Source of the DNA: a virus
Reading direction: 5' to 3' (one strand)
Virus record (IMG/VR): IMGVR_UViG_3300031952_000008
Coordinates: 1-64,000 of that record
Length of the DNA stretch: 64,000 nt
Shown: one piece after another, positions 1 to 9,976 of the stretch
Layout of the letters: the number at the start of each line of letters is the position of its first letter
Position numbering within the stretch: position 1 is the first letter of the stretch
The notes under the pieces: model-generated
What the model saw: the letters and a program-made list of their open reading frames with translations, nothing else
Told to the model about the DNA's origin: nothing
Database searches by the model: none
Translations under genes and position numbers: made by a program

Positions 1-1
1 A

Positions 2-151
2 GTAGAGAAAACAGGTGAAGATGATATGTTAAAAGATTATAATGGGGTATATATTAATTTTGTCAAAATTGGGATTAGATTATACAAAGCAAAAGTAGTT
101 AATAATATTTTGAAAGAGTTTGAGGAGGTGAGAAACTATGAAATTGATTAA
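2..151 (+). CDS. partial micro-ORF of the cassette array (5' end outside window)
   Basis: Frame open from the window edge; ends ...ILKEFEEVRNYEID*, sharing the ILKEFEE tail of later ORFs. Confidence 0.6.
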   Translation, partial: VEKTGEDDMLKDYNGVYINFVKIGIRLYKAKVVNNILKEFEEVRNYEID

Positions 152-362
152 AGTGAGCTTGAAGATTGGAAAAAGTAAAGAATATATCTGTGGTTTTCAT
201 AATGGTTATATTAGTGGACTTGCTGACCAGAAACAGAAAATGATTCAAATTATTTATAAATATTTTCCAGAAAAGCCAGTTAGGTGTTTTGCAGAAGCGA
301 TGAAAAATGGAAGTAGTCAAGCATTAAGAAGAGATATTTTGAAAGAGTTTGAGGAGTTGTAA
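138..362 (+). CDS. hypothetical micro-protein (LADQK...ILKEFEEL family)
   Basis: SD GGAGGTG upstream; shares blocks with 668..862 and 1795..2214. Confidence 0.75.
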   Translation: MKLIKVSLKIGKSKEYICGFHNGYISGLADQKQKMIQIIYKYFPEKPVRCFAEAMKNGSSQALRRDILKEFEEL

Positions 363-518
363 ATGAAACCAACAATTAAACCCGAAGATTTAAGTTTATA
401 CTGTGTAAACTTAGAACGAGATAAGTATTGCCCTATCGTTAAAGATTTCATCATGAATGGTTATGCGAGTGTTAATCTTTGTGGGGGATGTAATAAATTC
501 AAATTAAGGAGAGTTTGA
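363..518 (+). CDS. 51-aa Cys-containing micro-protein (not in ORF track)
   Basis: MKPTIKPEDLSLYCVNLERDKYCPIVKDFIMNGYASVNLCGGCNKFKLRRV*, directly after a junction repeat/SD. Confidence 0.65.
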   Translation: MKPTIKPEDLSLYCVNLERDKYCPIVKDFIMNGYASVNLCGGCNKFKLRRV

Positions 519-528
519 GGAGTTGTAA

Positions 529-663
529 ATGAAACCAAAAACAAATCTGGAATATTGTTATGGTTGCAATAGAAAGACAAAAAGAGTTAGAACTAAGGAA
601 GGAAGTTATTGTCCTTTTTGTAAGAAAGAGGCGATAAAACAAAGAAAAAGTTTGAGGAGTTGA
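529..663 (+). CDS. 44-aa zinc-ribbon micro-protein (not in ORF track)
   Basis: MKPKTNLEYCYGCNRKTKRVRTKEGSYCPFCKKEAIKQRKSLRS*; two CxxC motifs; SD in the repeat. Confidence 0.7.
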   Translation: MKPKTNLEYCYGCNRKTKRVRTKEGSYCPFCKKEAIKQRKSLRS

Positions 664-667
664 AATT

Positions 668-862
668 ATGAAAAAGAGTAATATAAGGTTTGTTTGTCTT
701 AATGAAGCTATTTGCCCAGTAATACCTCAAAGACTTGCTGACCAGAAAGCAAAGATGATAGAAATGTTTATAGAAGAATTTAATGATGATATTTATACAA
801 GCACAAGGTTAGAAAGAAAGTGGGATAATTTAAAGAAAGAGTTTGAGGAGTTGAAACTATGA
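668..862 (+). CDS. hypothetical micro-protein (LADQK...KEFEEL family)
   Basis: Shares LADQKxKMI and KEFEEL with 138..362. Confidence 0.75.
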   Translation: MKKSNIRFVCLNEAICPVIPQRLADQKAKMIEMFIEEFNDDIYTSTRLERKWDNLKKEFEELKL

Positions 863-1344
863 AAGATGAACAAAATAATCAGGATTGTAAAGGAGTACAG
901 AATTGCAGAGGTTGTATTGAGTGCCATAACTTAACTGGGTGTGATAACTCAACTTGGTGTGATAACTCAACTGAGTGTAATAACTCAACTGGGTGTAATA
1001 ACTCAACTGGGTGTAATAACTCAACTTGGTGTAATAACTCAACTGGGTGTGATAACTCAACTTGGTGTGATAACTCAACTTGGTGTAATAACTCAGCTTA
1101 TTGTCTGTATTGTTCTGATTTAGTTTTAGAAAAGTTTATGGTATTTAATAAACCAGTAAAAACAAAAGATGCATTCAATAAAATAAAAGAAAAGATACAA
1201 AACAAGTTAGGATATTATAAACATCCAAAAGATTTAACCAAAGAAGATATTGGTTGGTTAAAGAAGAATATCAAGCAATTTAACCAAGAAGTCTTAGACA
1301 AGATAATAAATGATAGTATTAAAAGTGATAAACCAAGAGTTTGA
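859..1344 (+). CDS. Cys-rich hexapeptide-repeat protein
   Basis: Ten C-x-N-S/L-T/A-x units; SD in the junction repeat. Confidence 0.75.
   Translation: MKDEQNNQDCKGVQNCRGCIECHNLTGCDNSTWCDNSTECNNSTGCNNSTGCNNSTWCNNSTGCDNSTWCDNSTWCNNSAYCLYCSDLVLEKFMVFNKPVKTKDAFNKIKEKIQNKLGYYKHPKDLTKEDIGWLKKNIKQFNQEVLDKIINDSIKSDKPRV
922..1101 (+). repeat. tandem 18-nt repeat, 10 units (TGTRATAACTCAACTKRG)
   Basis: Contiguous units at an 18-nt period from 922; first and last units are degenerate. Confidence 0.95.
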
Positions 1345-1353
1345 GGGGTTTAA

Positions 1354-1458
1354 ACGAAACAAACTTGTTGGCACTGCAAAGGAACAGGAGTGATTATGGT
1401 AGGAAGTTTCGCTGTAAAGTGTCCAACGTGTGATGGAACAAAAGAGGTGGAGGTCTAA
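1354..1458 (+). CDS. 34-aa DnaJ-type zinc-finger micro-protein with ACG start (or decayed start)
   Basis: xKQTCWHCKGTGVIMVGSFAVKCPTCDGTKEVEV* has CxxCxGxG and CxxCxG; context TAA-ACG-AAA mirrors TAA-ATG-AAA in sibling junctions. Confidence 0.6.
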   Translation, partial: TKQTCWHCKGTGVIMVGSFAVKCPTCDGTKEVEV

Positions 1459-1523
1459 AATGAAATGGTATACTACCGATAAAACAGTTTTTTATGTGCC
1501 CGACTATAATGTGTGGTGGGTGA

Positions 1524-1721
1524 ATGGATAAGAAATTATTTGAGAAAACATTAGAAAGAATAAAACATTGGCAAGTAAGAATTCCGTTCTTTATAAAGAA
1601 GTTAACAAAAGAGGAAGCGTTCATTCACGGATTCGATGCTGGTTACAGATGTAAATTATCCGAATTAGAAGATAAAATACATAGATTTACTCCAACATTT
1701 GTTTTTAAAGAGAAAAAATGA
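1524..1721 (+). CDS. hypothetical protein
   Basis: ORF track; GGTGG SD-like motif upstream. Confidence 0.6.
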   Translation: MDKKLFEKTLERIKHWQVRIPFFIKKLTKEEAFIHGFDAGYRCKLSELEDKIHRFTPTFVFKEKK

Positions 1722-1789
1722 AATCGAAAAAACAATTATTTGATTCAGAACACATAATAGGTTTATTGAAAACGTTTGAGGAGTTGTGA
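1718..1789 (+). CDS. 23-aa micro-ORF ending in the junction repeat
   Basis: MKSKKQLFDSEHIIGLLKTFEEL*; ATGA overlap with the upstream stop. Confidence 0.45.
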   Translation: MKSKKQLFDSEHIIGLLKTFEEL

Positions 1790-1794
1790 AAAAT

Positions 1795-2214
1795 ATGAAA
1801 CCAACCGAATATATTAAAGAAAAAAATGGATATAAAGAAGATGAAATTATGTGGGATGAAGGAAAAGACCAAGAAATAGATTTTGGAGATTTAGATGAAA
1901 AATTCGTTGAAGCAACACCAGAAGTTAGTCTTATACAAGCAACTACTAATAAATTGTTGAGAGATTATGCTACAATAAAAGAAGCTTTCATTATAGATGA
2001 ATTGCAAAAGTATATGGATTTATCTAATCCATCAGAACCGAAATGGGTTGAAAATGTTAGATTAAGATTGCAAGAAAAGAAAGATTGGGAAATAGAGAAA
2101 GAACAAGCTCTTGCTAACCAGAAACAGAAATATAAAGATATGTTAAAAAATAGTTTAAAATTGTGTGGATATTGTAAACATCAGATTTTGAAAGAGTTTG
2201 AGGAGGTAATTTAA
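1795..2214 (+). CDS. hypothetical protein (LANQKQK...ILKEFEEV family)
   Basis: ATG at 1795 follows the repeat SD; C-terminal blocks shared with 138..362. Confidence 0.75.
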   Translation: MKPTEYIKEKNGYKEDEIMWDEGKDQEIDFGDLDEKFVEATPEVSLIQATTNKLLRDYATIKEAFIIDELQKYMDLSNPSEPKWVENVRLRLQEKKDWEIEKEQALANQKQKYKDMLKNSLKLCGYCKHQILKEFEEVI

Positions 2215-2742
2215 ATGGGAATAAAAGAAGAAAAACAAGCAGTTAGAGATACTATAAAAGCCAGTACTAAAATGGTTACTTTCTATAGAACAGAGGCTAG
2301 TGATAAGGTAATTAATGATTTGAAAAAATTAGATATATTTATAAAGGCTAAAAGCATATGTATTTATAAACCTTTCGTTAATGAAATAGATACTATGCCA
2401 ATTATAAAAGAAAGCCTTAAACTAAATAAAAAGGTTTATATACCCAAGATTACTCCCAAAGGTATGGAACTTCAAGAGTTAGAACGATTAATTGGAGAAG
2501 AAGAAAGATTAGATATATTTAAATATGGGAACATATATGAAGGAGATGTAGAACTGATATTGGTACCAGGAGTAGCTTTTGACCATGAAAGAAATAGGTT
2601 AGGTAGAGGACAAGGAAACTATGATAAGTACCTTTCCAAACACAAAACTTATTCAATAGGTTTAGCTTTTATGGAACAGATAGTAGAAAAGTTACCAGTT
2701 GAAGACCATGACCAGAAAGTTAATCTGGTAATATTTGGTTAA
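2215..2742 (+). CDS. 5-formyltetrahydrofolate cyclo-ligase (MTHFS/YgfA family)
   Basis: LILVPGVAFD..RNRLGRGQGNYDKYL and LPVEDHD signature motifs. Confidence 0.9.
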   Translation: MGIKEEKQAVRDTIKASTKMVTFYRTEASDKVINDLKKLDIFIKAKSICIYKPFVNEIDTMPIIKESLKLNKKVYIPKITPKGMELQELERLIGEEERLDIFKYGNIYEGDVELILVPGVAFDHERNRLGRGQGNYDKYLSKHKTYSIGLAFMEQIVEKLPVEDHDQKVNLVIFG

Positions 2743-2762
2743 TCGCATTATCGCCAGTTAAT

Positions 2763-3068
2763 ATGGTAAACGTAAAAACTAGATTAAAAGGAACTGATGG
2801 AACCAATAACTATGAAATAGAGATAGCGTCAATAGGTAATGAATGGAGAATATTTAGAAACGGAATAGAAATGACCAATGTAGAATCCTTCCATATGGAA
2901 GCAACCCCTAATAAACCAACCGAAGTAGAATTATTAGTATTTAAATTCGATGAAGATGATAGTCCTCTTTATATAAATGAAGTATTACAAACAATGTATA
3001 TATCCTTTTATTTAACAGAAATGGTATGTTTAACCAATAATAGGTTTTTGATGGATTTGGAGTATTAA
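2763..3068 (+). CDS. hypothetical protein
   Basis: ORF in a tightly packed operon. Confidence 0.6.
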   Translation: MVNVKTRLKGTDGTNNYEIEIASIGNEWRIFRNGIEMTNVESFHMEATPNKPTEVELLVFKFDEDDSPLYINEVLQTMYISFYLTEMVCLTNNRFLMDLEY

Positions 3069-3069
3069 A

Positions 3070-3387
3070 ATGAAAACAATAAAATATTTAACATTAAGAG
3101 TAAATAATAAGATTGTAATATTTTATGATTGGGAAATACATACTGGTATGTTTACAGATTCATACTTTTATGGTTATGTAGTAGATAGTTTAGTTCCTGA
3201 ACAAATAGGTAATGAATATATGTTAATCGGAACAACTATATCGACAACTAATTTATTTGGTAACAAACAAAAAATAATATTTAGTGAAGACGTTGAAGAA
3301 TTGGAATTAGAAGAATTTAAGATACCTAACTGGTTTGAAAAGTTAGTAAGTTGGTTAACATTAGACCAAGAAAAAGAACTAATATGA
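3070..3387 (+). CDS. hypothetical protein
   Basis: ORF in a tightly packed operon; GGAG SD. Confidence 0.6.
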   Translation: MKTIKYLTLRVNNKIVIFYDWEIHTGMFTDSYFYGYVVDSLVPEQIGNEYMLIGTTISTTNLFGNKQKIIFSEDVEELELEEFKIPNWFEKLVSWLTLDQEKELI

Positions 3388-3581
3388 AAACTCCTAAAAC
3401 TTGTAAAGGTTGTTTAATATGGAAGAAATATCATCGTAAATGCCACTTTTTTTGGGAGAATAAAAATTATTGTTCTAAATTTACAGATAGAGAATTGGAG
3501 GATGTTAAAGATGGAATTAGCATATGTGTCGGGAAAGTATCGGGGGAGCTCGCCATCAGAGATTTACAACAACATAACTAA
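3384..3581 (+). CDS. small Cys-rich hypothetical protein
   Basis: ATGA overlap start; CKGC..C..C. Confidence 0.5.
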   Translation: MKTPKTCKGCLIWKKYHRKCHFFWENKNYCSKFTDRELEDVKDGISICVGKVSGELAIRDLQQHN

Positions 3582-3855
3582 GGCTAGAGATGTAGGTATT
3601 AAACTTTGGAAACTAGGCTATTGTGCGATTGTTCCGCATTTAAACACACAATTCATGGATGGTATAGTTCCCGATAATGATTTTTTAGAAGGAGATATTG
3701 AAATATTAAGTAGGTGTGACTTTATAGTTATAATGGAAGGTTGGCAAGAAAGTAAAGGAGCTAAAGAAGAAGTTAAGTATGCTAAAGAAAACCAGATACC
3801 AATATACAAGTTCGTAAAAGGAGATAAATTGTCTCCGGTTATAATCATGGATTGA
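3502..3855 (+). CDS. DUF4406/nucleoside deoxyribosyltransferase-like Rossmannoid protein
   Basis: YVSGKYRG..PH..LSRCDFI..GWQESKGAKEE pattern. Confidence 0.7.
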   Translation: MLKMELAYVSGKYRGSSPSEIYNNITKARDVGIKLWKLGYCAIVPHLNTQFMDGIVPDNDFLEGDIEILSRCDFIVIMEGWQESKGAKEEVKYAKENQIPIYKFVKGDKLSPVIIMD

Positions 3856-3926
3856 GTATGAGCGATGATAAAATTCGGATGGTCCCGGCTGAGCTTTGAA
3901 GGGTTACGCCTTCCATACTCAATTCA
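3848..3926 (+). ncRNA. candidate structured RNA: three-way junction with a box C/D-type k-turn
   Basis: P1 3848-3860/3914-3926 (13 bp); AGC-GAUGAU...CUGA-GCU k-turn arm; P3 GAAGG-GUUACG-CCUUC; GC-rich island in AT-rich DNA. Confidence 0.55.
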
Positions 3927-3939
3927 AACAATCGTAACA

Positions 3940-3957
3940 TTTATATATGAGAAGATT
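3940..3957 (+). promoter_or_regulatory. archaeal TATA promoter with downstream GAASAT element
   Basis: TTTATATA-tga-GAAGATT. Confidence 0.65.
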
Positions 3958-3982
3958 CATATACTATTATAGGTGCTATAAA

Positions 3983-4255
3983 ATTAGACTTACCCTATCA
4001 CAATCCGAAATTGAAAGTTGTATAAAAACTAAGATGCCTAATATTTCTAGTTTCGAGTGGAAGATTAAAAAACGAAAAGAAGGCAAAGTAAATATAACCA
4101 GCATTGAGGTTATAGTGGATACACCAATCGAAACATTTATAAAGGAGAAGAAACAAGAACATATTGTATCTCCTATAATTACTGAACAGAAAGAACCAGT
4201 AGGTGGCTCTCCTTTAGCTATGAAACCCACTAGAGTAATGGGTCCTACTATTTGA
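3983..4255 (+). CDS. hypothetical protein, probable ATT start
   Basis: The track ATG (3947) overlaps the TATA box; SD AGGTG lies 7 nt before in-frame ATT 3983. Confidence 0.55.
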   Translation: MRLTLSQSEIESCIKTKMPNISSFEWKIKKRKEGKVNITSIEVIVDTPIETFIKEKKQEHIVSPIITEQKEPVGGSPLAMKPTRVMGPTI

Positions 4256-4263
4256 GGTAAAAA

Positions 4264-4392
4264 ATGGGAAAAACAAAACCTAAATTTAGAAAGGATAAGA
4301 ATATCTGTATAGAATGTGGAGCTTGTACAGATATGAGTTACAGCGATGCCATAGATATTTGTCCTGTTGAAGCTGTATTACGAATAGATTGA
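4264..4392 (+). CDS. 42-aa single-cluster ferredoxin-like protein (not in ORF track)
   Basis: MGKTKPKFRKDKNICIECGACTDMSYSDAIDICPVEAVLRID*: CxxCxxC plus CP; SD GAGGT. Confidence 0.75.
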   Translation: MGKTKPKFRKDKNICIECGACTDMSYSDAIDICPVEAVLRID

Positions 4393-4401
4393 GGAATTAA
4401 A

Positions 4402-4746
4402 ATGGAAGAAACTAATAATACTGAATTTTTAGAAAGTGAAATTGATGAGTTTGCCGAACAACTATCCGATAAAGACCTTGAACAATTAGGTGATTGGGGT
4501 CATCCACAAACGGCCGAAACCAAGCGAAAGATAGCAAAGAGTTTAATGGGTAAAAAGAATCCAGCTTATAAAGATGGTCGTAGATTAGATTATCGTAAAA
4601 TGAAAGGTCTTAAAAAAGGAGACTCAAGAGTAGTTCATCATAAGGATAATGACCGAACAGACAACAAACCAAGTAACTTAAAGGTTGTATCTAGAAAGAC
4701 ACACGAAGGACCTCTCCATCACAGAGGTAGGAATTTTAATAAGTGA
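4402..4746 (+). CDS. HNH endonuclease with NUMOD3-like motif
   Basis: ETKRKIAKSLMGKKNP; VVHHKDNDRTDNKPSNL..H. Confidence 0.8.
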   Translation: MEETNNTEFLESEIDEFAEQLSDKDLEQLGDWGHPQTAETKRKIAKSLMGKKNPAYKDGRRLDYRKMKGLKKGDSRVVHHKDNDRTDNKPSNLKVVSRKTHEGPLHHRGRNFNK

Positions 4747-9037: not shown

Positions 9038-9976
9038 ATGGTCGAATTAACTGATATGGATGGAATTGGTAAAGTTGGAATTCAAAAATTAAAAGATGCA
9101 GGAATTTTTGACGTTATCGGTCTAGCTGTTAAGTCTCCGGCTGACTTAGTTGAAATAATTGGTGGCTCAGAAGCTACTAATAGGAAACTAATTCAAAAGG
9201 CTAGAGAAATGCTAAGTTTTAGTTTTGAAACTGGAAAGGATATAGATAAGCGTAGGACTGAAATGATTAAGATAGCTACTGGTTGCAAACCTATTGATGA
9301 TATGATGGGGAATGGTTTTGAAACTGGTAGTATAACTGAGATTTTTGGCGATTTCGGAAGCGGAAAAACGCAGTTAGCTCATTTCCTTTGTTGTAAAGTT
9401 CAACAACAAATACCTGGTTGTTTAGTTTATTACTTAGATACAGAAACTACTTTCCGACCTGAAAGGATTAGAGATTTTTGTGAGGGGTTAGAGTTAGACC
9501 CTGAGAAAGTTCTTAAAAATATAATATACGCCAAGGCATTTAACTTCGAACATCAAATACTATTAGTGGAAGAAATAGAGAAACAGATAGCTAAGGATAA
9601 GTTAAATGTTAAATTAATAGTAGTGGATAGTTTAACTGCTCACGCAAGGTCGGAAATGACGGGTAGAGGAACCTTAGCTGAGAGGCAACAATTACTTAAT
9701 AAACATATGCATAAATTAAGTAAAATAGGAGATATTTATAATTGTTGTATTTTTGTAACCAATCAAGTAATGAGTAATCCCGGAACTTCTTTTGGTAACC
9801 CAATACAACCAATAGGGGGAAATATAGTTGGACACAATTCTTGTAGTAGAATATATATCCGAAAAGGTAAGGCAGATTCTAGAGTTATGAAATTAGTTGA
9901 TTCGCCACATTTACCTATATCGGATGTTAATTTTAATATAACAAAAACAGGTCTTGAAGAAGTTGAAGAAAAATAA
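9038..9976 (+). CDS. radA: archaeal-type DNA recombinase RadA
   Basis: N-terminal HhH, GDFGSGKTQL, YLDTETTFRPERI, VDSL, GRGTLAERQQ, TNQV, PIGGNIVGH. Confidence 0.95.
   Translation: MVELTDMDGIGKVGIQKLKDAGIFDVIGLAVKSPADLVEIIGGSEATNRKLIQKAREMLSFSFETGKDIDKRRTEMIKIATGCKPIDDMMGNGFETGSITEIFGDFGSGKTQLAHFLCCKVQQQIPGCLVYYLDTETTFRPERIRDFCEGLELDPEKVLKNIIYAKAFNFEHQILLVEEIEKQIAKDKLNVKLIVVDSLTAHARSEMTGRGTLAERQQLLNKHMHKLSKIGDIYNCCIFVTNQVMSNPGTSFGNPIQPIGGNIVGHNSCSRIYIRKGKADSRVMKLVDSPHLPISDVNFNITKTGLEEVEEK

What the first reader, a model, noticed from the sequence alone, without database searches (positions are those of the whole stretch)
1..2214. Array of micro-genes joined by a conserved nucleotide junction repeat (shuffleable cassette array)
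Seen: eight copies of GAGTTTGAGGAGTTG-like sequence, spaced about 140-500 bp apart, each at the end of one micro-ORF and just before the next start (mostly ATGAAA, three times ATGAAACCAA). The upstream ORFs read the motif in all three frames (KEFEEL/V, RV*, KSLRS*), so conservation is at the nucleotide level and extends beyond the SD core. I did not see this motif at gene starts elsewhere in the window. Cargo includes a zinc ribbon, a DnaJ-type finger and a Cys-repeat protein. Inference: the repeat is a portable stop+RBS+start joint that allows insertion, deletion and reordering of early host-takeover or anti-defence cassettes by short-homology recombination, or it is an RNA processing/translation-control site. 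The array probably continues left of the window.
Basis: partly seen in the sequence, partly recalled or inferred. Interest (0 to 1): 0.78.

Follow-up and report, generated by a model that had tools for sequence, protein, structure and literature searches.

The report
Shuffled micro-gene family with dual-use joints
A run of tiny genes in an uncultured sediment virus (probably of archaea) is stitched together by one short sequence that serves at once as protein tail, stop signal and ribosome-binding site. Genes and half-genes are lost, swapped and recombined at it in nature, which makes this a good example of a known kind of viral gene-shuffling hotspot.

Summary
Eight same-strand copies of GTTTGAGG(A/G)G with conserved flanks lie at window 116-2208. 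TTTGAGGAG occurs 7 times in the whole 94,280-bp virus record, all of them here, so this is not the genome's generic SD.

The reading is partly supported and needs one correction. Five of the eight copies are the C-terminal codons (L)KEFEE(L/V) of one micro-protein family. That family has at least 64 clusters in metagenomes: leader MKQEQSSLEK, variable N module, LADQKxK, variable middle module, KEFEEL, stop. The three out-of-frame copies look like decayed family tails that upstream genes now run into.

The same bases carry a strong SD (GAGGAG), stops in all three frames (6 of 8 copies) and the next start 5-11 nt on.

Contigs from other sediment samples show two clean in-frame deletions exactly between motif copies, and different downstream genes after the same joint. 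Family proteins recombine N and middle modules at LADQK (49 x 48 module types, one four-gamete square).

The motif has no hairpin or promoter, and the record encodes no tyrosine or serine recombinase. It does encode a full-length RadA.

Best reading: a tandem, fast-diversifying micro-gene family whose conserved dual-use segments are where ordinary homologous recombination shuffles it. Closest known are PeSLs of T4-type phages and SAS of Cluster K mycobacteriophages. This scan has reported similar arrays on other DNA.

The parts
116..130 (+). Joint copy 1 (GAGTTTGAGGAGGTG). Read as EFEEV in the tail of ORF 2-151; start of ORF138 lies 10 nt after the core.
345..359 (+). Joint copy 2. Read as EFEEL-stop of ORF138, followed by TAA then ATG at 363. 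It is the left partner of the 494-nt deletion seen in run X4.
511..525 (+). Joint copy 3. The upstream ORF363 reads it as RV-stop. The FEEL frame is closed by a stop 2 codons upstream, so this looks like a relic tail.
648..662 (+). Joint copy 4. ORF529 reads it as SLRS-stop. The FEEL frame would read KKFEELKL-stop. It is 88% identical over 41 nt to copy 5.
   Evidence: (family D6)
839..853 (+). Joint copy 5. Read as EFEELKL-stop of ORF668, overlapping the ATG at 859. It is the right partner of the X4 deletion.
1337..1351 (+). Joint copy 6, degenerate (GAGGGG). ORF859 reads it as RV-stop. The next start at 1354 is ACG here and ATG in runs X3, X4 and part of X2.
   Evidence: (place 1355)
1772..1786 (+). 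Joint copy 7. Read as TFEEL-stop of the 23-aa ORF 1718-1789. It is the left partner of the 422-nt deletion in X4.
2194..2208 (+). Joint copy 8. Read as EFEEVI-stop of ORF1795, followed by ATG 2215 of the 5-FTHF cyclo-ligase gene. This is the right end of the array.
217..250 (+). Intragenic joint LADQKQKM in ORF138. It uses the rare codons GAC and CAG.
   Evidence: family D4
732..765 (+). Intragenic joint LADQKAKM in ORF668. The same 32 nt precede window position 1 in runs X2, X3 and X5.
2108..2141 (+). Intragenic joint LANQKQK in ORF1795.
2..151 (+). C-terminal part of a family member cut by the contig start. The full-length form is P0193 (91 aa).
138..362 (+). Family member, 74 aa (P0121). 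P0122 is a chimera with another N module joined at LADQK.
363..518 (+). Cys-rich ORF of 51 aa with a family-like start (MKPT..). It has no LADQK. Its tail runs into the joint in another frame.
529..663 (+). Zinc-ribbon ORF of 44 aa with a family-like leader (MKPKTNLE). Zinc-ribbon N modules recur in the family (P0142, P0166).
668..862 (+). Family member, 64 aa (P0123). Its N module occurs with 7 different middle modules in metagenomes. The model is a two-helix hairpin.
859..1344 (+). ORF of 161 aa with a leader-like start, an 18-nt x 9.4 tandem repeat (926-1095) coding C-(D/N)-N-S-T-x, and a weak Y01A-like C-terminal part.
1354..1458 (+). DnaJ-type CxxCxGxG zinc-finger micro-ORF (34 codons). 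The start is ACG in this record and ATG in other samples.
1460..1721 (+). Two further micro-ORFs (1460-1531 and 1524-1721) without the joint, linked by overlapping stop and start codons.
1718..1789 (+). ORF of 23 aa that consists only of a family-type tail (..LLKTFEEL).
1795..2214 (+). Family member, 139 aa (P0124). Its N part occurs with other middle modules (P0135, P0136), and its middle module with 5 other N modules.
9038..9976 (+). Virus-encoded full-length RadA/Rad51 recombinase (HhH plus Rad51 domain). It is the candidate enzyme for the exchanges; its involvement is inferred, not shown.

Best explanation
Window 1-2214, and more to its left, is a tandem array of micro-genes. Most derive from one fast-diversifying viral micro-protein family.

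A family member is built as follows: leader (MKQEQSSLEK-like), variable N module (often a Cys/zinc module), LADQKxK, variable middle module, (L)KEFEEL, and a stop after 0-2 more residues.

The same bases are used twice. GAGGAG is the strong SD of the next cistron, the unit holds stops in all three frames, and the next ATG follows 5-11 nt later. The genes are therefore packed for coupled translation (inferred from sequence).

These short segments are the only stretches of near-identical DNA between otherwise unrelated modules. Ordinary homologous recombination therefore falls there, possibly through the virus's own RadA. It deletes, adds and replaces whole genes at the KEFEEL joint and swaps half-genes at the LADQK joint.

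Shown: the anatomy, the restriction to this array, the family, the deletion joints and the chimeras.
Inferred: translational coupling, the enzyme, and that the diversity is selected.
For: 1. The motif is confined to the array: 7 of 7 TTTGAGGAG in 94 kb.
2. No comparable repeat was found in about 90 related loci.
3. The family is real. Searches with an alignment found 23 and then 64 clusters of 56-153-aa proteins, all with LADQK and a C-terminal KEFEEL.
4. Codon choice shows a DNA or RNA constraint. GAG is 20% of Glu codons genome-wide but 14 of 14 in the in-frame copies. The rare codons GAC and CAG recur in the LADQK copies.
5. Stops in all three frames before or at the next start occur in 6 of 8 copies.
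6. Run X4 holds a 338-nt contig with 0 mismatches that joins 173-340 to 835-1004 through a shared 19 nt. X4 has no depth over 352-702. X4 also joins 1772 to 2195. Both joints are in frame.
7. Contigs identical up to the joint then continue into other genes: behind 126, 147, 363 (the start of P0190) and 856.
8. Module exchange at LADQK: 49 N x 48 middle module types. 12 N modules occur with more than one middle module (one with 7), 14 middle modules occur with more than one N module, and there is one four-gamete square.
9. P0144 lies on three contigs, the longest 80.6 kb; the near-identical neighbour protein P0001 also has an 80,633-nt longest contig, so probably the same one. It has the same tail as window ORF 2-151 but other modules.
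10. A full-length RadA is encoded 7 kb away.
Against: - Breaks of similarity in the population also occur away from the joints (1155-1217, 1821-1901, 2305-2353). Among the 24 loose ends shown, only 6 lie at joints, against about 4 expected.
- Most listed joints have sides of only 21-34 nt (10 of 12) and may just be other family copies aligning to the repeat.
- Many chimeric proteins come from short de Bruijn contigs, which could be mis-joined at repeats.
- No DNA of relatives could be fetched, so motif conservation at synonymous sites outside this record is unknown.
- Variants such as KFEEL, EFDEL and EFEEM show that the peptide itself is conserved. That could explain the repeat without any role in recombination.
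- Nothing shows which enzyme acts.
Confidence: 0.6

Rival explanations
1. Protein-level conservation only. LADQK and KEFEEL are structural or partner-binding motifs of a two-helix micro-protein scaffold. The DNA identity is a by-product of recent duplication plus the SD requirement. Recombination at these motifs is rare and incidental, and has no bearing on why the repeat exists.
For: The motifs are kept in at least 64 clusters with conservative substitutions. The model places LADQK at the start of helix 1 and KEFEEL at the end of helix 2 (mean pLDDT 69). A second family in the same genome keeps a C-terminal LMDL motif with synonymous variation.
Against: Three copies are kept in DNA although they are not read as KEFEEL. 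The Glu codons are 14 of 14 rare GAG. Deletions and cassette replacements do occur at the motif in natural populations.
Confidence: 0.2
2. Translational operator or RNA-processing site. The extended motif around the SD is bound or cut by a viral or host factor that co-regulates this gene set, as proposed for the start-associated sequences of Cluster K mycobacteriophages.
For: Bases flanking the SD core (GTTT on the 5' side, TTG on the 3' side) are conserved although they are not needed for 16S pairing. The motif occurs on one strand only and only before this gene set. This matches the SAS description (PMC3203893).
Against: The flanks are explained by the family's Phe and Leu codons in 5 of 8 copies. 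There is no conserved RNA structure and no Rfam match. No candidate binding protein was identified.
Confidence: 0.1
3. Assembly or alignment artefact. The array is a fixed set of paralogs, and the apparent shuffling comes from chimeric short contigs and from other family copies aligning to the repeats.
For: Ten of the 12 listed joints have short sides of 21-34 nt. Most family proteins lie on contigs under 5 kb. The contig itself breaks in a 32-nt repeat.
Against: The shared 19 nt at the X4 joint is shorter than Logan's 31-mers, so the junction words must exist in reads. The skipped interval has no depth in X4. P0144 lies on three contigs of up to 80.6 kb, and the P0127 type occurs in both JGI and ENA data. 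ORF138 is seen on 5 contigs but ORF668 and ORF1795 on only 2.
Confidence: 0.07
4. A dedicated site-specific recombination system (integron-like or shufflon-like) that uses the repeat as its site.
For: The architecture is an array of small cassettes separated by one repeat.
Against: No tyrosine or serine recombinase was found in the record, which CheckV rates 82% complete. The repeat has no inverted symmetry or hairpin. All copies are direct. The exchanges are in frame and follow the extent of shared sequence (19 nt), as expected for homology-driven events.
Confidence: 0.03

Closest known systems
PeSL (promoter-early stem-loop) cassettes of T4-type phages RB49 and phi1 (Arbiol et al. 2010, PMC2839356; Comeau et al. 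2014, PMC4122927)
   Same: A short repeated motif sits between small, mostly orphan genes in a hyperplastic region. It spans the upstream stop, the SD and the downstream start. Insertions, deletions and replacements between relatives have their breakpoints in the repeats, through homologous recombination.
   Different: PeSLs consist of a sigma-70 promoter plus a terminator-like stem-loop and are intergenic. Here there is no promoter signal above chance and no stem-loop. The repeat is coding (a protein tail), the genes belong largely to one family, and a second joint lies inside the genes. Mini-circles were not seen.
Start-associated sequences (SAS) of Cluster K mycobacteriophages (Pope et al. 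2011, PMC3203893)
   Same: An asymmetric repeat of about 13 bp with an AGGAG core lies a few nt before ATG starts. It has one orientation, occurs only in the non-structural part of the genome, is absent elsewhere, and sometimes contains the upstream stop.
   Different: SAS are spread over half a genome before genes of many unrelated families, and half of them carry an inverted-repeat extension. Here the copies cluster in about 2 kb, coincide with a family's C-terminal codons, and show recombination joints.
Conserved glycine-rich motifs between hypervariable segments of T-even gp38 adhesins (Trojet et al. 2011, PMC3157838; Tetart et al. 1998, cited there)
   Same: Short conserved motifs inside a gene separate hypervariable segments. 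Exchanges that create chimeras occur within or near these motifs, as at LADQK.
   Different: gp38 is a single-copy virion adhesin with a known function. Here the gene is a multi-copy micro-protein of unknown function, and the C-terminal motif doubles as a translation signal.
Integron gene-cassette arrays
   Same: A row of small, promoter-less cassettes in one orientation, separated by a recurring site.
   Different: There is no IntI, no attC-type imperfect inverted repeat, and the exchanges follow homology.

Membership tests
PeSL cassettes (T4-type phages) | Sigma-70-type early promoter inside the repeat | tested here: not met
   21 promoter-like sites in 1-4500 against 22.1 expected, and none tied to the motif. 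The virus is probably archaeal.
PeSL cassettes (T4-type phages) | Stable stem-loop (terminator or attenuator) in the repeat | tested here: not met
   RNAalifold on the 8 copies gives 0 pairs. There are no inverted repeats at the motif, and 1 terminator-like site against 1.4 expected.
PeSL cassettes (T4-type phages) | Indel and replacement breakpoints between relatives fall in the repeats | tested here: met
   Two in-frame deletions run exactly between motif copies, and alternative downstream genes follow the joint. Other breakpoints also exist away from the motif.
PeSL cassettes (T4-type phages) | Excised mini-circles carrying one cassette | tested here: inconclusive
   Two 'goes back' joints in the contigs. 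One is explained by a paralog to the left of the window. The other has a 34-nt side only. Contigs cannot show circles.
Start-associated sequences (Cluster K mycobacteriophages) | Asymmetric repeat with an SD core 3-7 nt before the start codon, in one orientation | tested here: met
   All 8 copies lie on the + strand, and the gap from GAGGAG to the start is 5-11 nt.
Start-associated sequences (Cluster K mycobacteriophages) | Dispersed before genes of many unrelated families across the non-structural half of the genome | tested here: not met
   All copies lie within 2.2 kb, and 5 of 8 are the C-terminal codons of one family.
Integron | IntI-type tyrosine recombinase next to the array | tested here: not met
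   PF00589 finds nothing in the record, while the controls ring in 14 of 14 genomes. The record is 82% complete.
Integron | attC sites: imperfect inverted repeats that fold as hairpins | tested here: not met
Shufflon or invertible-segment systems | Repeats in inverted orientation plus an Rci/Hin-type recombinase | tested here: not met
   All copies are direct. No PF00589 or PF00239 match.
LADQK-KEFEEL micro-protein family (defined here; no Pfam or PHROG entry) | LADQKxK motif followed 17-45 residues later by (L)KEFEEL within 0-7 residues of the stop | tested here: met
   Met by window ORFs 138-362, 668-862 and 1795-2214, and by ORF 2-151 through its full-length form P0193. No Pfam or PHROG family at E<0.01.
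Translationally coupled operon with an intragenic SD | SD of the downstream cistron lies inside the upstream coding tail, with stop and start adjacent or overlapping | tested here: met
   Direct reading of the sequence.
Translationally coupled operon with an intragenic SD | Downstream translation depends on upstream translation | not testable with these tools
   This needs reporter or ribosome-profiling data.

The most novel reading that the evidence does not exclude
The three conserved segments (leader, LADQK, KEFEEL joint) may be kept by selection as a built-in combinatorial diversifier. A probably archaeal virus, using its own RadA, would continually reassort dozens of N and middle modules and whole cassettes of a micro-protein family. 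The population would then carry a large library of variants aimed at a variable host target such as a defence system. The joint would be designed to stay functional in any frame, supplying stop, SD and start together.
Probability: 0.25. Interest if true: 0.75.

Novelty: new variant of a known kind. Interest (0 to 1): 0.55.

Why it matters
Hyperplastic regions full of orphan micro-genes are where viruses keep much of their host-interaction and counter-defence repertoire. How such regions turn over is documented mainly for T4-type phages.

This case adds four things:
- The joint is coding sequence that doubles as translation signal.
- Exchanges happen at two levels: whole genes at the KEFEEL joint and half-genes at LADQK.
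- The natural population in several sediment samples visibly carries the alternative arrangements.
- The virus is probably archaeal and encodes its own RadA.

It also defines an unannotated micro-protein family with at least 64 clusters. That family could be tested for function, and its conserved ends could serve as handles (PCR or capture) to sample the module library directly from environmental DNA.

Tried and rejected
Searches for related DNA that found nothing usable:
- Phage record collection (INPHARED, GenBank phage records), near and distant modes: no match.
- IMG/VR scans with the 16-mer (55 single chance hits), with the 5-FTHF ligase and AAA proteins, with P0122, with the family alignment and with an LADQK..FEEL DNA pattern (8 chance hits at 48-56% GC).

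Relatives found through the neighbouring 378-aa protein:
- 8 viral loci, 80 metagenome loci and 1 MAG locus. They are at most 68% identical, except one 1.4-kb fragment.
- They carry no such repeat and no family member, so they could not be used to map breakpoints.

Tools that did not help:
- No RNA holder was listed among the sequencing runs, so expression and RNA ends were not examined.
- Rfam gave nothing at the motif.
- The protein atlas gave only generic helical-hairpin look-alikes and sub-threshold leads.

Ideas considered and dropped:
- A programmed frameshift that would restore KEFEEL in the out-of-frame copies (an SD-like AAGGAG before GTT-TGA at 505-518; AAAAAG at 645-650). It is speculative, and relic tails explain the data more simply.
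- Circularity of the contig. The contig end and start would read through in frame from a prim-pol-like ORF, but three samples place a family paralog to the left of position 1 and P0193 gives the true N-terminus.
Full report
**1. Observation**

The 15-mer GAGTTTGAGGAGTTG occurs with 0-2 mismatches at window 116, 345, 511, 648, 839, 1337, 1772 and 2194, always on the + strand. Allowing up to 3 mismatches the window has 13 matches against 1.76 expected, and no shuffle of 100 reaches 13. The five matches outside the array have 3 mismatches each and sit in unrelated contexts.

The window is bases 1-64000 of a single 94,280-bp virus record with 32% G+C. IMG/VR classes it as linear, and CheckV rates it 82% complete.

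In that whole record GTTTGAGGAG with up to 1 mismatch occurs only at these eight places, plus three unrelated single sites. TTTGAGGAG occurs 7 times, all within 1-2300. GAGGAG is used elsewhere as an SD but with other flanks.

Each copy ends an upstream ORF and lies 5-11 nt before the next start. Six of the eight units carry stops in all three frames before or at that start.

**2. What the repeat is**

Five copies are read as (K/T)FEE(L/V) at a C-terminus. These include a 23-aa ORF at 1718-1789. Two copies are read RV-stop and one SLRS-stop.

A second repeat of about 30 nt, coding LADQK(Q/A)K, lies inside ORFs 138-362, 668-862 and 1795-2214.

Searches gave the following:
- ORF138 alone found P0122. 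This has the same C-terminal half as ORF138 but a different Cys-rich N-terminal half, joined exactly at LADQK.
- A four-sequence alignment found 23 micro-proteins.
- A 24-sequence profile against 1.84 billion cluster representatives found 64 clusters at E<=0.001, all 58-153 aa.

The family shares one architecture: a leader like MKQEQSSLEK, a variable N module that is often CxxC-rich, (A)LADQKAK(IREW), a variable middle module, then (LL)KEFEEL followed by 0-2 residues (rarely 7) and the stop.

P0193 is the full-length form of the ORF cut by the window start. Pfam and PHROGs have no family for these proteins. An AlphaFold model of ORF668 is a two-helix hairpin, with LADQK opening helix 1 and KEFEEL closing helix 2. 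Its mean pLDDT is 69, so this is a weak indication.

The junction repeat is therefore first of all the conserved tail of a multi-copy family, not a purely non-coding joint.

**3. Why there is still a DNA- or RNA-level story**

- Codon choice. GAG makes up 20% of Glu codons in 43 long ORFs of this genome, yet all 14 Glu codons in the in-frame copies are GAG. The rare codons GAC (19%) and CAG (20%) recur in the LADQK copies.
- SD function. GAGGAG is this genome's strong SD, as seen before some 15 other genes. The tail codons therefore double as the ribosome-binding site of the next cistron.
- Out-of-frame copies. The three copies read in other frames keep the same bases. In the FEEL frame they still spell short family-like tails (KKFEELKL at 648, EFEEL at 511, QEFEGF at 1337), but stops close that frame a few codons upstream. 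Copy 648 is 88% identical over 41 nt to copy 839, including 15 nt upstream of the core, although the upstream ORFs use different frames (family D6). I read these as decayed tails. Upstream genes were joined out of frame and now run into the tail and stop at its internal TGA. Those upstream genes are themselves N-module-like: ORF529 has the family leader plus a zinc ribbon.
- Contrast with a second family. Another set of about 20 small ORFs in this genome ends in LMDL, and that motif shows free synonymous variation: TTA or TTG, GAT or GAC.
- Structure. The motif has no conserved RNA fold, no Rfam match, and no promoter-like or terminator-like signal above chance.

**4. Evidence for exchange at the joints**

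Thirteen sediment-metagenome runs from 13 studies hold parts of window 1-3000. Logan contigs of four runs other than the probable source were laid on 1-3500.

Two joints are robust:
- In X4, a 338-nt contig with no mismatch joins 173-340 directly to 835-1004. A 19-nt stretch (GAAAGAGTTTGAGGAGTTG) is shared by both sides. The event removes ORFs 363, 529 and 668, and X4 has zero depth over 352-702. The shared stretch is shorter than the 31-mers of the assembly graph, so the junction words must be present in reads.
- X4 also joins 1772 to 2195 with a 57-nt side, removing ORF1795.

Both events keep the upstream tail in frame: ..KEFEELKL and ..LLKKFEEVI.

Several contigs are identical up to a joint and then run into different genes:
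- behind 363, a start that matches P0190;
- behind 856, another leader-like start;
- behind 126 and behind 147.

Position 1 of the window is preceded in X2, X3 and X5 by 32 nt identical to 734-765. The contig start is therefore an assembly break in the LADQK repeat, and the array continues for at least 1.4 kb to the left.

ORF138 is recorded on 5 contigs, but ORF668 and ORF1795 on only 2.

At the protein level I split 74 family members at LADQK:
- This gave 49 N-module and 48 middle-module types.
- 12 N modules occur with more than one middle module. The ORF668 N module occurs with seven.
- 14 middle modules occur with more than one N module. The ORF1795 middle module occurs with six.
- There is one complete four-gamete square.

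P0144 lies on three contigs, the longest 80.6 kb. The neighbour protein P0001, 100% identical to its window counterpart, also has an 80,633-nt longest contig, so the two probably share it. P0144 has the same tail as window ORF 2-151 but other modules.

**5. Caveats**

- Ten of the 12 listed joints have sides of 21-34 nt and may be other family copies aligning to the repeat.
- Loose ends also cluster away from the joints (1155-1217, 1821-1901, 2305-2353). Among the 24 shown, 6 lie at joints against about 4 expected. The region is broadly mosaic, and the joints are not the only breakpoints.
- Most family proteins come from short contigs that could be chimeric.
- About 90 loci of more distant relatives were found through the neighbouring 378-aa protein, and almost all are at most 68% identical to it. 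They have neither the repeat nor the family. The feature is specific to this lineage.

**6. Mechanism**

The record has no tyrosine or serine recombinase. All repeats are direct and lack dyad symmetry. The exchanges follow the extent of shared sequence and preserve the reading frame.

This fits homology-driven recombination or copy-choice at short identical patches. It does not fit an integron-like or shufflon-like system.

The virus encodes a full-length RadA/Rad51 with the N-terminal HhH domain. The Pfam Rad51 match is 1.4e-76, and the best solved relatives are archaeal RadA proteins. This suggests an archaeal host and offers a candidate enzyme, but its involvement is an inference.

My best reading, at 0.6, is a tandem, fast-diversifying micro-gene family. 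Its conserved dual-use segments (protein tail plus stop, SD and start; LADQK; leader) are the places where recombination deletes, adds, replaces and chimerises units.

Rivals:
- Peptide conservation only, with incidental recombination: 0.2.
- A translational operator or RNA-processing site as proposed for SAS: 0.1.
- Artefact: 0.07.
- Dedicated site-specific recombination: 0.03.

**7. Comparison with known systems**

- PeSLs of T4-type phages (PMC2839356) are the closest in behaviour. They are repeats spanning stop, SD and start between orphan genes, with recombination breakpoints between relatives. However, they are promoter plus stem-loop elements, and both features were tested here and not met.
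- SAS of Cluster K mycobacteriophages (PMC3203893) are the closest in anatomy. They are an asymmetric 13-bp repeat with an AGGAG core a few nt before ATG, sometimes containing the upstream stop. They are dispersed before unrelated genes, and no recombination role is described for them.
- The gp38 adhesins of T-even phages (PMC3157838) are the precedent for conserved intragenic motifs that mediate swaps of hypervariable segments.
- This scan has reported several similar arrays on other genomes. One of them has a protein tail that doubles as the next gene's ribosome site. The kind is therefore recurrent.

**8. Verdict**

This is a new variant of a known kind. What is new is the coding, dual-use nature of the joint, the two-level shuffling of whole genes and half-genes, a newly defined micro-protein family, and population-level evidence in a probably archaeal virus.

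The function of the proteins is unknown, and a role in host takeover or anti-defence remains conjecture.

Interest: 0.55.

Noticed in passing
window 926-1095: An 18-nt tandem repeat, 9.4 copies at 92% match, lies inside ORF 859-1344. It codes hexapeptides C-(D/N)-N-S-T-(W/G/E), each with an N-x-S/T sequon. Depth and variants are raised there in other samples, so copy number may vary.
   Followed up: partly
window 1354-1356: The DnaJ-type zinc-finger micro-ORF starts with ACG in this record. Position 1355 is T, giving ATG, in runs X3 and X4 and in about half of X2. The 'non-AUG start' here is a strain variant or a start-codon mutation.
   Followed up: partly
window 3048 and 10236; genome 80101-93221 (beyond the window): About 20 small ORFs end in (P)KxLMDL plus 2-3 residues, directly before or overlapping the next start. 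Synonymous codons vary freely (TTA/TTG, GAT/GAC). This is a second family with a conserved tail at gene junctions.
   Followed up: partly
genome 93,700-94,280 joined to window 1-151: A prim-pol-like ORF at the contig end would read through in frame into window ORF 2-151 if the record were circularised. Other samples and P0193 show that a family paralog lies to the left of position 1 instead. The record is a fragment broken in a repeat.
   Followed up: yes
window 133: A one-base insertion polymorphism (T behind 133) lies in the spacer between joint copy 1 and the ATG at 138. It is the majority form in run X5 (23 of 30.8 depth) and a minority in X2. It would change the tail after EFEEV and the SD-start spacing.
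   Followed up: no
   Followed up: no
window 9038-9976: Full-length archaeal-type RadA/Rad51 with an HhH domain. Best solved relatives are Pyrococcus, Methanococcus and Sulfolobus RadA. This is an indication of an archaeal host. One related contig is binned in a Planctomycetia MAG, probably a binning artefact.
   Followed up: partly
window 2215-2742 and 4402-4746: The first gene after the array is a 5-formyltetrahydrofolate cyclo-ligase homolog (Pfam 6e-34). An HNH/NUMOD3 endonuclease gene lies 2 kb further on.
   Followed up: no
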